Positions 2,827 through 61,554 of a stretch of 64,000 nucleotides of DNA are shown one piece after another. Source of the DNA: Octopus sinensis. Its lineage: Eukaryota. Each line of letters opens with the position of its first letter. Position 1 is the stretch's first letter. The DNA lies in assembly GCF_006345805.1 (NCBI RefSeq), contig NC_043013.1, positions 55,676,001-55,740,000 of the forward strand, in the 5' to 3' direction. A program made the position numbers and the translations under genes. Under the pieces are notes generated by a model. The model was not told where the DNA came from and made no database searches. It saw only the letters and a program-made list of their open reading frames with translations.

Positions 2827-2832
<6 letters not shown>
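2604..2832 (-). mobile_element. Penelope-like element fragment (endonuclease C-terminal relic plus 3' end)
   Basis: 2604-2700 is repeated at 3963-4060; frameshifted minus-strand reading LC..E.AVEI...[10 protein letters not shown] resembles the CxLCxxEKxxI...LNxRxE tail of PLE GIY-YIG domains. Confidence 0.6.
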
Positions 2833-2962
<130 letters not shown>

Positions 2963-3121
2963 AAGCAAGGAAAATCATTAAACTCAAGATACACAACAAA
3001 CTCACAATGTATCGGAGTACTTATTTTTTAATTTTTATACATATTTATTATTATTCTTTTGCAAAAAACAATGCAACTTTTTTTCCCCTTTCTCATTTTC
3101 AAAAAAACCTTTTCACCTAAC

Positions 3122-3163
3122 TATTCTTGATAAGTCAAACTATGACGAAAACCGGTTTGAATA
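3122..3163 (+). ncRNA. Minimal type-I hammerhead ribozyme motif, U3-A8 core variant
   Basis: TATTC-TTGATAA-GTC(aaactat)GAC-GAA-AACCGGTT-T-GAATA: 5-bp stem I, 3-bp stem II, palindromic stem III. Confidence 0.75.
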
Positions 3164-3294
3164 AATATATATTTATATATTTTTTCATTTTCTCATTTCA
3201 TTAAAATTTTCTTTCAATCGAGCATTCTGCATTTTTACAATTTTTCCTTGCTTATCATTTCTCCACGTGCGGTCAACACAACCCCACCATTTAT

Positions 3295-3582: not shown

Positions 3583-4384
3583 TTTACAAAATGAGGGCTA
3601 AAGAAAAATTCTAAAGCCAAATATTCCGAAAAAAAGACAAAAATTGTCAAAAACCATTATAATTTATGCATCTTGAAACAAACCGATAGAAATTTCTAAA
3701 AAATACGTTATTACCGTATTGGTCCCAATTTTGGGGTTAATTCATAAGAATTTTCCCTTCTTCAGTGATAAATACGTGAGATATAAGTGAAATACTTACT
3801 CATACCCATGGAAAAAGCAAGCACTAAGTCCTGAGCAGACCTAAGTACCCCAAATATATTCAAAATAGATAATCTTCGACACATCTTGAGACACGTGTGA
3901 TTCGAACTAGAAACTTTCACAGAGTGAGAGAATCCGGAAGTGAACACTATTCAATTTATAACTAATGTAGGATAAAATTTTTTCCGGAAAAAAAATTTTA
4001 TCAATGGCCAGCATATCAAAAAATACATTTAAAGGTTAAATTTATAAATAATTTACAAAATGAGGGCAGAAGAAAAATTCTAATGCCAAATACCCCGAAA
4101 AAAAAGACAAAAATTGTCAATTAACCATTACAATTTATGCGTCTCGAAACAAACCGATAGAAATTTCTAAAACATACATTATTACCGTATTGGTGCCAAT
4201 TTCGGGGTTAATTCATAAGAATTTTCCCTTCTTATGCCGTCTTTTTTTCGGCATATTTGGCATTAGAATTTTTCTTCTGCCCTCATTTTGTAAATTATTT
4301 ATAAATTTAACCTTTAAAGGTATTTTTTGATATGCTGGCCATTGATAAAAATTTTTTCCCGAAAAAAATTTTATCCTACATTAG

Positions 4385-18858: not shown

Positions 18859-19390
18859 CCTATCATAACTGATCCAAAATAATTTGTGTATTTATTCTTC
18901 CTTATATACAAATTCAAAATAAATAGTATAAAAATGTGTATGTTAAGAGGTTAACAACAAAGAAGTGATATTGAACCAGTGTGTGTTAGTTTTATTGGCG
19001 TTTTGGCCGTCCCAAAACACAAGATTTGCTTCAACACATGAACTCACATCAAGAATCTTGCAAACCAAATACAAAACAGGAAATAACATTTGAATATTTT
19101 ATATCTATAAGCTAGAAAGTGGGATTTTTTTACAGTAGACAGATCATAACTGATAAATATCTGAAAAAGGTCAAGAAAAGCATTTAATTTGTGTATTTTG
19201 TTATAATTTAGTTATTTTAGGGGTTAAGAAATGGTTTGTTTCTGGTATTTTTGTTGCTTCTTATCCAAAATTTTTAACATTATGTGTATTTTACTGACAG
19301 ACTTTTCCTTAATTAAAATATCACAGTTTATTTATATTTCTTTACTCAACATGGAGATAATCTTAGTAGTTATTTTAAAAATAATGAACA

Positions 19391-19425
19391 TAATAATAAT
19401 GATAATAATAATAATAATAATAATG

Positions 19426-19472
<47 letters not shown>

Positions 19473-19488
19473 TATTATTATTATTATT
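19391..19488. repeat. (TAA)n switching to (TTA)n
   Basis: Orientation flips at about 19471. Confidence 0.95.
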
Positions 19489-19872
19489 CTATGTTTGACT
19501 TTTGCTTTATATTTGTACAAGTTGGCTCCAAGTCTCACCCAGAGACCTCAAGAGACAACAGGGTTGGAAGTTCATGTTGTTGTTATGCCTAGTGTGCCAT
19601 ATATTTGGGGGGTGGGGATGTTGTACTAATGAATGTCTAAAAAAAAAAGTTTTTTTTTTTTTTTTTTTTTTTTAAACCGAAAATTATGGTTGTTTTAAAC
19701 CTTGAGGTTACATAGAGAGTATTTTGCGTAGGATATGAGCAGTTCCCATGAGCACTATCTTTTGAACTTCTGCCATTTTTGGGTTTCCTGGTATCTGAGT
19801 TAGGTAGCTATCAGCCCCTTTTGCTATCATTCCCAGGGCACCTATGACAACAGGTATTGTTTTAGTCTTCAG
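19489..19872 (-). mobile_element. 5'-truncated R4/Dong-like RLE non-LTR retrotransposon in (TAA)n
   Basis: KTKTIPVVIGALGMIAKGADSYLTQIPGNPKMAEVQKIVLMGTAHILRKILSM* matches the RLE C-terminal signature PxVIGALG...QKxxLxGTAxILR; (TAA)n on both sides on the element strand. Confidence 0.85.
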
Positions 19873-19883
19873 TATTATTATTA

Positions 19884-19939
<56 letters not shown>

Positions 19940-58840: not shown

Positions 58841-59632
58841 GAAAGAGGTGTATTACACAAGGTATTACAGTGAACAAAACCCCTTGCTAAGCCAGGAACA
58901 GAGAATATCTACGAAGGTTCAGCTTGCTAGAAATAGAAACCAAATCTCTCTTAGATCATATCAGTTTTAAATAAAAAATAGTTTGGATGAACTAATCTTA
59001 AAAATTGTTGGTGGTCAAATCTGGAGAGCCTTTGATTGTGGGTTTTCTTTGTTATCACCCTCATAACTTGTTAATGAAAACATACTGAGTGTGTTCCTCA
59101 ACTACACTGCTCTGTGTTAATCAGGCTATCTCATACTAGAAATGGCAGCCAAACTGCTTTCTCATCATGTATTCTAAATTTTAAAAGGAAGGCACATTAC
59201 CTAATGTATTTAAGTGTATGAATAAATATGTATTGATGTGTATTTGTCTATCAATCTATCTATCAGTTTGTTTGAATGTACATACATATGTATGTATGTA
59301 TGCTTCCTCCGAGTAAGGAGCTGGTTTTTAACAAAGCTCCATCGTTGGAATGGAGATAACAAAAAACAAAGGAACCTTTTAAACTTGAGAAAAGTCTTGC
59401 ATATTCATTCTGCTCCATTTCCAGATTATGTTTGTGACGTGTGAAGTGGTTGATTTCTCTTTTTCTGAAATCCAAGCTTATCCAGGCAGTTGCTTAGGCA
59501 TTTACTCACGAAACCAAGGGCAACAAACATTGCTGGTAAAAATCAAAATTTATAATCTGGATTTGGAAGCTGGAGGTTTCAAAGCATAGTCATCCTCTTT
59601 CTCTTTAACTTTCAGTGTGTGTGTGTGTGTGT

Positions 59633-60929
59633 CATTATTATTCAGTTTATTTCAAGATTTCTTGCCAATAGAGAAAGAACCAGTTTCTAACTGAGATCCA
59701 AGGCTTGTTCATTGGAATTTCAACATGGAAGAGGTAGACTCAGAAAGACCTGGGATGAAGTGGTGAAGCATGACCTTCGAACATTAGTCCTCGTCAAGGC
59801 AATGACTAGTGGCCGAGACCTTTGGAAATATGCTGCACTTGAGAAGACCCAGCAAGTCAATTTCACTTGCCTCAACAGGTCTTTGCAAGCAGAGTTTAGT
59901 GTCCAATGAAGGAAAGGTACGCATAAATGGGCTGGTTACACCCCTGGCATAGGCCATGAGGTTATGGTCTCACTTGACTTGCTGGGTCTTCTCAAGTGTG
60001 ACCATAACCTCATGGTCTATGCCAGGGGTGTAACCAGCCCACTTATGCGTACCTTTCCTTCATTGGACACTAAACTCTGCTTGTGAAGACCTCTTGAGGC
60101 AAGTGAAATTGAAATCGAAATCAAATTCGATGACTGGCATCCATGCTAGTGGAGCGTTAAGAGCACCATCCAAGCGTGATCGTTGCCAGAGCAACAAATT
60201 GGCTTCTGTGCTGGTGGCATGTAAAAAGCACCATTCAAGTATGATCATTACCAGCGTCGCCTTACTGGCACTTGTGTTTGTGGCACGTGAAAAAACATTT
60301 GAGCAAGGTTATTGCCAGTGCGGCTGGACTGGCTCCGGTGCAGGAAGCACATAGTGTGGCTGTTGCCAGCACCACCTGACTGGCCCTCGTGCCAGTGGCA
60401 CGTAAAAGCACCCACCACACTCTTGGAGTAGCTGGCGTTAGGAAGGGCATCCAGCTGTAGAAACTCTGCCAGATCAAGTTTGGAGCTTGGTGCAGCCATC
60501 TGGTTCGCCAGTACTCAGTCAAATCGTCCAACCCATGCTAGCATGGAAAGCGGACGTTAAACGATGATGATGATGATGATGACTACAGAGTATTTTTGTT
60601 TGTTTGTATGTATGTATGTATGTATGTGCAGATTTGTATGTTTTATGTACCTATTCTCATGCATATAGTTACATACCTAGACATGCTCATATATATTTAA
60701 ATGATAAACTTCTGGAAAGTTTTACAGATTTTTACAGTTCCAGTGATGGATTGGATCTGTAGTCTTCGAATTAGGTTTCTCCTTTCTGGTTTCGAGAAGC
60801 CTAATTTCTCAAGATTGGTATTTAGGCAGTGTGTTACATATCTCAGGACCCCAATAATTACCTGAACCTGTAATCTGGATAGAGCAACTGCAGATTTCTC
60901 AATAGTTCAGCATAGGTGATCTTCAGCTT
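59633..60929 (-). mobile_element. 5'-truncated RLE-type non-LTR retrotransposon, probably split by the RTE insertion
   Basis: 60929-60697 reads YAELLRNLQLLYPDYRF/frameshift/IIGVLRYVTHCLNTNLEKLGFSKPERRNLIRRLQIQSITGTVKICKTFQKFII*; (TACA)n lies 5'; putative terminus 59723-59633 has AATAAA, then (CA)n. Confidence 0.7.
59724..60582 (+). mobile_element. 5'-truncated RTE LINE with internal inverted duplication
   Basis: GRGRLRKTWDEVVKHDLR...GRDLWK is an RTE ORF C-terminus; 3' UTR and (GAT)n tail follow. Confidence 0.9.
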
Positions 60930-61028
60930 TATGTATGTATGTATGTATGTATGTATGTATGTATGTATGTATGTATGTTTGTATGTATGCATGTATGTAT
61001 GTATGTATGTTTGTATGTTTGTATGTAT
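60930..61028. repeat. (TATG)n microsatellite
   Basis: Direct reading. Confidence 0.95.
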
Positions 61029-61117
61029 GCGCTCACACACATACATAATTACAATACACCAAGGTATTGTCATAATAAAATCAGTTTGATCAAATGTTTT
61101 CTGAACAATCCCTGGTT

Positions 61118-61554
61118 CATCATCATCATCATCGTTTAATGCCCGTCTTCCATGCTGGCATGGGTTGGATGATCTGACTTGAGCTGGCCAGGCAGAAGAC
61201 TGCCTCAGGCTTCTGTGTCAGTTTTGGTAGGGTTTTTACAGCTGGATGTCCTTCTGAACACCAACCACTCCACAGAGTGGACTTAGTGCCTCCAGCACAA
61301 TAAGATCAGTTTTGACATGACTTTTGCAGCTGGATGCCCTTCCAAATGCCAACCACTTTACAGTGTGGACTGAATGCTTTTTTACGTGGCACCAGTTCTG
61401 GCAGGGTTACCAAGTAACTTTGTAAGACAAAGAATCTTTGAAAGGGGAAGGGGCATTGGAAGAGGAGGTGATCTTCTGTCAGATGATGAAAGGCTACAGT
61501 GTGACAGAGAGACAGAAACAGGTGTCTTGCTGTAGGGGAGGTACATGGCTACCC

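What the first reader, a model, noticed from the sequence alone, without database searches (positions are those of the whole stretch)
59615..61028. RLE retrotransposon associated with (TACA)n/(CA)n instead of (TAA)n
Seen: an RLE-type C-terminus, quite divergent from the 19.7-kb element, begins exactly at a ~100-bp (TACA)n array and has a further TACA run in its 3' UTR. Its inferred terminus (59723-59633, beyond the nested RTE) ends at (CA)n. Established: RLE elements are often sequence-specific; ACAY-repeat targeting is known for APE-encoding R1-clade Waldo elements. Inference: an RLE lineage that independently acquired ACAY-type specificity, which I do not recognise as described.
Basis: partly seen in the sequence, partly recalled or inferred. 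Interest (0 to 1): 0.75.

Follow-up and report, generated by a model that had tools for sequence, protein, structure and literature searches.

The report
Retrotransposon branch that lands in CATA-repeats
This is a dead, front-truncated copy of an abundant jumping-gene family whose copies sit between runs of the four-letter repeat CATA and nearly all face the same way, likely because its own enzyme cuts that repeat, and it belongs to an old branch of Dong-like elements that likely uses four-letter repeats instead of the usual TAA.

Summary
Confirmed, with corrections. 60934-59632 (minus strand) is a 5'-truncated, frameshifted copy of a ~4.2-kb RLE non-LTR retrotransposon, split in its 3' UTR by an unrelated RTE. 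The terminal piece is contiguous 3' UTR in 20 of 29 other copies. (CATA)2+ lies within 30 nt of 35 of 47 truncation points, 26 of 33 full-length 5' ends and 66 of 80 3' ends. Background is 0.9%, the reverse repeat is rare, and an age-matched RTE scores 0 of 29. (CA)n is minor, so the target is (CATA)n, not ACAY broadly. The window's (CA)n is a spacer before a second, missed copy of a related family. Four such families exist here; three were treed and form one clade. It lies in a deep branch only ~30% identical to the co-resident (TAA)n Dong; two metagenome relatives adjoin (CTTA)n. Targeted insertion is well supported; protein-directed cutting is inferred. Not found in 10 literature searches, but Repbase and key papers were unavailable. 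This scan reached the same reading earlier in another genome (unreviewed notes). New variant of a known kind.

The parts
60930..61029 (-). (CATA)n array upstream of the 5' truncation point (target array); its last 5 nt (60934-60930) are also the element's own sequence (microhomology)
   Evidence: family sequence at this point from other copies
60697..60929 (-). 3' end of the family-1 ORF (C-terminal half of the RLE domain); 15-nt in-frame deletion near the start, 10-nt frameshifting deletion at ~60861, stop 60699-60697
   Evidence: (93% to working majority sequence)
60628..60696 (-). 3' UTR, first unique part
60598..60627 (-). internal (CATA)5 plus CAAA units; element-encoded copy of the target inside the 3' UTR
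   Evidence: present with variable length in other copies
60585..60597 (-). first 13 nt of the 110-nt terminal piece, left of the RTE insertion
59724..60584 (+). nested, 5'-truncated RTE-type element with (GAT)n tail, opposite orientation; 5 nt of host lost, 3-nt overlap at its 5' end, no target-site duplication seen; internal fold-back 59857-60112
59632..59726 (-). rest of the family-1 terminal piece and true 3' end
59615..59631 (-). (CA)8 spacer between the two stacked elements; likely a decayed or variant target array
59303..59614 (-). second, older 5'-truncated copy of the same lineage (family 4), same orientation; lacks the last ~25 nt of its family
   Evidence: 50% aa over 70 residues to family 1; 73-77% nt to its own family
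59287..59302 (-). (CATA)4 at the 3' end of the family-4 copy

Best explanation
This is a decayed, 5'-truncated copy of a Dong/R4-like RLE retrotransposon family whose copies adjoin (CATA)n on the same strand at both ends, likely because its single protein recognised pre-existing (CATA/TATG)n arrays, nicked the TATG strand and reverse-transcribed its RNA from that nick. Shown: the domain order (N-terminal domain homologous to that of TAA-type Dong, RT, CCHC knuckle, PD..E..K RLE); strand-specific (CATA)n at full-length 5' ends, at scattered truncation points and, in fixed phase, at 3' ends; copies sitting inside another copy's own 3'-UTR array; four families with this pattern; a separate deep branch with (CTTA)n-flanked relatives. 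Inferred from R2 biochemistry: target-primed reverse transcription, bottom-strand nicking, and specificity set by the N-terminal Myb/SANT-like domain with the RLE. Inferred weakly: 5' joining through 2-5-nt microhomology to the array. The array in the element's own 3' UTR, and the array left beside each insertion, would re-create targets and explain head-to-tail stacks such as the one in this window.
For: Junctions: 35 of 47 de-duplicated primary truncation points have (CATA)2+ within 30 nt, 1 has (TATG)2, 1 has (CA)4. Full-length 5' ends 26 of 33 (0 TATG); 3' ends 66 of 80 (4 TATG), in phase. Background 0.89%. Controls: age-matched RTE (88% pairwise) 0 of 29 at 5' and 0 of 29 at 3', Fisher p=1e-11, and its own (GAT)n tail occurs only at the 3' end; young TAA family 0 of 15 CATA. 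DNA beyond the 5' arrays is unrelated in 42 of 46 copies, so the arrays are not tails of one other retroposon. Nested copies inside family 1's internal array: L103 (host body, array, full-length guest with its own end, host end), L260, L013, L323, L365. Family 2: 14 of 26 at 5', 23 of 37 at 3'. Family 3: 15 of 27, 7 of 12. Family 4: 8 of 29, 21 of 40. Tree: families 1-3 form a 100/100 clade inside a 24-row branch (100/100) apart from all TAA-flanked rows. L176 (52% aa) has (CTTA)13 and (CTTA)12 at its ends, L177 (52%) has (CTTA)14 at its 5' end. The branch profile matches R2 proteins from RT to the C-terminus, E=4e-47; a model of L176 (pLDDT 88.6) matches R2 structures best.
Against: No intact ORF of these families was found here, so nothing can be assayed from this genome directly. 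No orthologous empty site was found and no target-site duplication could be read inside the repeats. 12 of 47 truncation points, 7 of 33 full-length 5' ends and 14 of 80 3' ends lack the array; only 2 of 7 near-5' truncations in the full-length set had it; the oldest family reaches only 8 of 29 at 5'. Copies were the best-scoring 30-40 hits per query, not a random sample. Microhomology rests on 12 cleanly resolved junctions of 34 (5 with 3+ nt, 7% expected). The Myb/SANT identity of the N-terminal domain was not detected by Pfam or PDB profile search. Only 2 of 3 metagenome branch members reach a flanking repeat. The tree has no R2, NeSL, HERO or CRE outgroup.
Confidence: 0.72

Rival explanations
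1. The insertions are targeted, but by RNA-DNA pairing rather than protein recognition: a loosely specific endonuclease nicks AT-rich DNA, and priming succeeds only where (CAUA)n at the RNA 3' end anneals to a nicked (TATG)n strand.
For: All four families meet the array in a fixed phase starting with C. Read-through transcripts would carry CAUA units. RNA-target pairing is known for some telomeric R1-clade elements (recalled, no call).
Against: RLE elements such as R2 bind targets through N-terminal DNA-binding domains, and the same is argued for Dong (PMC7998251, passages). The N-terminal domain is conserved here. No direct test was possible.
Confidence: 0.17
2. The arrays are made or carried by the element (tail and co-transcribed head), and the 'truncated' copies next to arrays are later deletions between a 5' array and internal ATA microhomologies.
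For: The element carries an internal (CATA)n. Full-length copies show many internal deletions. Part of each 3' array may well be RNA-templated or expanded after insertion.
Against: A true tail appears only at 3' ends (RTE control). 3' probes find far more candidates than a 5' probe (2651 vs 378 first-look candidates), as 5' truncation predicts. The brand-new TAA family shows the same both-ends pattern before deletions could accumulate. Guests sit inside a host's pre-existing array.
Confidence: 0.07
3. Passive accumulation: the element inserts without preference and survives in microsatellite-rich, low-recombination regions, as proposed for Drosophila Waldo-A/B.
For: The genome is very rich in microsatellites. 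The idea is in print for Waldo-A/B (PMC3812793, passage).
Against: Immediate adjacency, a 35:1 strand bias, fixed 3' phase, and 0 of 29 for an age-matched RTE in the same genome.
Confidence: 0.03

Closest known systems
Dong elements of the R4 clade (B. mori Dong, DongAg, DongBg, ostracod Dong1/2; PMC3812793 and PMC7998251, passages)
   Same: Single ORF with RT, CCHC and RLE; homologous N-terminal domain; inserts into a microsatellite in fixed orientation, with the repeat at both ends of truncated copies.
   Different: Target (CATA)n, or (CTTA)n in relatives, instead of (TAA)n. Only ~30% aa identity to the co-resident TAA family and a separate 100/100 branch. Carries its own target inside the 3' UTR. 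No named Dong sequence was in my tree; 'Dong-type' there means TAA-flanked elements.
Waldo (WaldoAg1/2, WaldoFs1; R1 clade, ACAY repeats; PMC3812793, passage)
   Same: Target unit overlaps (ACAT is one of the ACAY units).
   Different: Waldo has an APE endonuclease, this has an RLE, so the overlap is convergent. Here CACA is minor.
Togen ((TG)n) and microsatellite-specific HERO families (RLE; PMC4640811, passages)
   Same: RLE elements that target microsatellites other than TAA, so target switching among RLE elements has precedent.
   Different: Different targets; placed near NeSL/HERO by the authors. I could not compare sequences.
'Dong-R4' of octopus repeat annotations (PMC13282606, first third of text and passages; PMC8967140, passages)
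   Same: Abundant Dong-R4 LINEs of about 4.2 kb are reported in octopus genomes; these families probably fall under that label.
   Different: Neither text mentions a target repeat in the passages found ('target' 0 occurrences in PMC13282606). Supplements were not read.
R2 (structures 9nl3, 9dou, 8gh6)
   Same: Best sequence-profile and fold matches; same RT-knuckle-RLE layout.
   Different: 16-18% identity; R2 targets 28S rDNA and has N-terminal zinc fingers.

Membership tests
RLE-type non-LTR retrotransposon | RT domain of non-LTR type in a single long ORF | tested here: met
   RVT_1 above cut-off in L070 (E=1e-8); intact 1153-aa ORF in relative L176; family-1 copies are all broken
RLE-type non-LTR retrotransposon | CCHC knuckle followed by C-terminal PD-(D/E)xK restriction-like endonuclease | tested here: met
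   CRLC..H....C and RPD..E..K aligned across families 1-3, L176, L177, P0246 and the TAA family; branch profile covers R2Tg to its C-terminus
RLE-type non-LTR retrotransposon | Fixed 3' end, variable 5' truncation, no LTRs | tested here: met
R4/Dong clade | RT phylogeny groups it with R4/Dong to the exclusion of R2, NeSL, HERO, CRE | tested here: inconclusive
   30% to TAA-type Dong versus 16-18% to R2, but no named R4/Dong sequence and no outgroup in the trees
R4/Dong clade | N-terminal divergent Myb/SANT-like domain without zinc fingers | tested here: inconclusive
   Aligns with the N-termini of TAA-side elements (G, R invariant; N, Y, W, Q nearly so) and is a confident three-helix unit in the L176 model; no Myb hit in Pfam or PDB profile search
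Dong proper (TAA-specific) | Insertion into (TAA)n | tested here: not met
   0 TAA runs at family-1 junctions in all sets
Waldo (R1 clade) | APE endonuclease | tested here: not met
   No APE family in Pfam scans of full-length relatives P0014, P0246, P0210; C-terminal RLE instead
Waldo (R1 clade) | ACAY target with both ACAT and ACAC | tested here: inconclusive
   ACAT dominant; (CA)4 at 6 of 80, 4 of 37, 0 of 12, 3 of 40 3' ends versus 1.6% background: slightly enriched, may be decay of CATA
Site-specific retrotransposon | Sequence-specific nicking by the encoded endonuclease | not testable with these tools
   needs a biochemical assay

The most novel reading that the evidence does not exclude
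An unnamed, ancient sister branch of Dong, with members from cnidarians (Hydractinia) to cephalopods, is specific for four-letter C[A/T]TA microsatellites, has switched between CATA and CTTA by a one-base change of specificity, and in octopuses seeds its own landing sites through a target copy in its 3' UTR, building polarised stacks and shaping the genome's (CATA)n landscape.
Probability: 0.5. Interest if true: 0.72.

Novelty: new variant of a known kind. Interest (0 to 1): 0.55.

Why it matters
How RLE retrotransposons change target is an open question and matters for R2-based gene insertion. TAA, CATA and CTTA versions of one protein layout, with intact ORFs available for TAA (L167, L262-L271) and CTTA (L176, L177), make it testable by binding, nicking and N-terminal domain-swap assays. 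Thousands of arrays in this genome share flanking element sequence, which also affects microsatellite marker design and repeat annotation. It is not a new mechanism: microsatellite-specific RLE elements are known.

Tried and rejected
Empty-site search: laying four public DNA runs on 58900-61300 gave no contig bridging the insertion; the family has very high summed depth in coded organisms A, B, C and E, which is not a copy number. Run search: no RNA holder listed. Target-site duplications: looked for by eye in copies with both ends; unreadable inside repeats. Ribozyme or structured RNA: Rfam on L080, L095, L176, L177 gave only sub-threshold miRNA-like hits on simple repeats; 5'-end folds showed no shared structure. 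A single-sequence fold of the family-1 N-terminus was unusable (pLDDT 45.7). A single RLE-region query against PDB sequences found nothing relevant. Stand-alone 110-nt 'SINE' idea: rejected, 27 of 29 terminal pieces have element body upstream (one, L136, later proved to be family 2). Idea that the arrays are tails of an RTE: rejected for the window's GAT-tailed RTE and by 42 of 46 unrelated upstream flanks; other RTE families were not examined. Intact or young CATA-family copies: none among the hits. Literature searches without a report of this target. Not held: Kojima 2020 review, Fell 2025, Biedler 2015, Shivram 2011. Kojima and Fujiwara 2003/2004 are known only from citing passages; Repbase was not available.

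Full report
Setting. The window lies on G000:C17, in a 2.7-Gb animal genome. It is likely an octopus: the nearest named homologue is from Argonauta, and earlier scan notes say the same. I did not identify the assembly.

Observation. On the minus strand the locus reads: (CATA)n 61029-60930; an ORF remnant 60929-60697; 3' UTR; an internal (CATA)5; 13 nt of a terminal piece; an inverted, 5'-truncated RTE with a (GAT)n tail (59724-60584); the rest of the terminal piece to 59632; and (CA)8. The remnant is 93% identical to a working majority sequence of the family and carries a 15-nt and a 10-nt deletion. Among 29 other copies found with the ORF end, 20 continue through a variable CATA array into the same 110-nt terminal piece. 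Among 29 found with the terminal piece, 27 have element body upstream. So 59633-59723 is true 3' UTR. Directly beyond the (CA)8 lies a second truncated copy of a related, older family (59614-59303) that ends in (CATA)4. The (CA)n is therefore a spacer in a two-element stack.

The family. A 296-nt query gave 2651 first-look candidates; the best 39 other copies were 90-93% identical. Walking upstream gave a ~4.2-kb element with a sharp 5' end. Longer copies encode an N-terminal domain, RT (Pfam RVT_1), a CCHC knuckle and an RLE with RPD..E..K. All 38 5'-anchored copies fetched are broken (longest family frame 295 aa), and two protein searches found no intact copy.

Is (CATA)n more than chance? 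I scored two or more CATA units, any rotation, within 30 nt of a junction. Random windows score 178 of 20,000. Primary 5' truncation points score 35 of 47, against 1 for the reverse repeat and 1 for (CA)4. Dropped before this count: the window copy, one duplicate locus, copies with more element upstream, junctions at a locus edge and full-length starts. Full-length 5' ends score 26 of 33, and 3' ends 66 of 80 in fixed phase, C89 A90 T80 A82 C85 A88 T82 A88 (the 80 include the window copy). Seven near-5' truncations scored only 2. Controls: the RTE family nested here, of similar age, scores 0 of 29 at both ends, and its own tail occurs only 3'. The young TAA family of 19.7 kb scores 0 of 15 for CATA and 7 of 15 for TAA, an undercount because the boundary often ran into the TAA run. 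All sets are best-scoring hits, not random samples.

Target or tail? Arrays at scattered truncation points are what insertion into an existing array predicts. DNA beyond the 5' arrays is unrelated in 42 of 46 copies. Family 1's own 3'-UTR array is a known pre-insertion site, and copies sit in it: L103 shows host body, array, full-length guest with its own end, then the host end; L260, L013, L323 and L365 show the left half of that arrangement. Adjacent lineage fragments were co-oriented in 50 cases and opposed in 8, with overlapping loci and some rearrangements not removed. Microhomology of 3 nt or more occurred at 5 of 12 cleanly resolved junctions (7% simulated), but 22 of 34 could not be resolved, so this is weak. 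No orthologous empty site was found.

CATA, not ACAY. (CA)4 occurs at 6 of 80, 4 of 37, 0 of 12 and 3 of 40 3' ends of families 1-4, against 1.6% background. That is a slight excess and could be decay of CATA.

Breadth of the lineage. Searching with the Argonauta protein revealed family 2 (single copies 49% aa to family 1) and a fragment of family 3; the window gave family 4. CATA at 5' junctions: 14 of 26, 15 of 27, 8 of 29. At 3' ends: 23 of 37, 7 of 12, 21 of 40; a stricter motif-anchored count gave 17 of 29 and 9 of 25 for families 2 and 3. In a 38-row IQ-TREE analysis (11 rows of an earlier set left out for time), families 1-3 form a 100/100 clade within a 24-row branch (100/100) that excludes every TAA-flanked row. 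The family 2 and 3 majority proteins were built on family 1 as guide, which can inflate their likeness; family 4 was not treed; the root is a midpoint and no outgroup was available. Family 1 and the co-resident TAA family share 30% over 671 aa. Of 80 metagenome loci, 3 belong to the branch (50% or more to family 1). L176 has (CTTA)13 and (CTTA)12 at its ends, L177 has (CTTA)14 at its 5' end and no such run 3', and L178 reaches no flanking repeat. Of the other 37 loci with ORFs of 600 aa or more, 24 adjoin TAA-type runs and none adjoins CATA or CTTA (my count of the table). Named proteins near the branch come from Argonauta hians (in the tree) and Hydractinia symbiolongicarpus (62% to P0200 over a quarter of its length, not treed).

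Mechanism. The branch profile aligns to R2 proteins from RT to the C-terminus, and the L176 model matches R2 structures best. By analogy with R2 (established knowledge), the protein likely nicks the TATG strand and primes reverse transcription of the RNA 3' end there. The N-terminal domain aligns with that of TAA-side elements, which PMC7998251 describes as a divergent Myb/SANT domain proposed to set specificity; my own Pfam and PDB searches did not detect Myb. I put protein-directed targeting at 0.72, RNA-pairing-directed targeting at 0.17, element-made arrays at 0.07 and passive accumulation at 0.03.

Known context. PMC3812793 (passages) lists Waldo at ACAY and Dong at TAA. PMC7998251 (passages) says Dong targets (TAA)n in most insects, molluscs and cnidarians. 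PMC4640811 (passages) gives Togen at (TG)n and some HERO families at microsatellites. PMC13282606 (first third and passages) and PMC8967140 (passages) report abundant octopus Dong-R4 without targets. PMC7650587, PMC12503042 and PMC13580325 (passages) added nothing on targets. Ten searches found no CATA or CTTA target. Repbase, Kojima and Fujiwara 2004, Kojima 2020 and Fell 2025 with its supplement could not be seen and may hold it; no supplements were read.

Earlier scan notes. Seven unreviewed notes from another genome reach the same reading, two of them including CTTA relatives. I saw them after my own counts and trees; they are not independent support. Several describe an RTE sharing the arrays on the opposite strand; the RTE in this window does not.

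Verdict. A real, strongly supported target preference in a deep Dong-like branch: a new variant of a known kind, interest 0.55.

Noticed in passing
window 59857-60112: The nested RTE contains a fold-back: the segment matches its own reverse complement at 90.6% over 256 nt, perhaps a template switch during insertion.
   Followed up: no
window 19390-19938; L104-L133, L164-L175, L262-L285: The TAA-type Dong at 19.7 kb is very young: all 40 best hits are 100% identical. Other TAA-side families have stop-free frames up to 1348 aa, so several are probably active.
   Followed up: partly
L190, L211 (metagenome): Two related Dong-like elements adjoin (ATT)n/(TTA)n on the sense strand, the reverse of the usual (TAA)n orientation, and group together at 100.
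   Followed up: no
L103, L135, L137, L141, L146: The 110-nt terminal piece often occurs twice in tandem with a CATA spacer, as expected from insertion into the internal array or from re-priming.
   Followed up: partly
L033, reverse strand ~2830-3230: An insertion with a tRNA-like head (judged by eye, not by tool) interrupts the 5' end of a near full-length copy.
   Followed up: no
L033, reverse strand ~3770-3890: Family 1 carries an (AGT)n/(AGC)n run inside its N-terminal coding region, where the working sequence loses frame.
   Followed up: no
L136, L369, L373: Some copies adjoin (CATC)n rather than (CATA)n, suggesting tolerance at the fourth base or later array drift.
   Followed up: no
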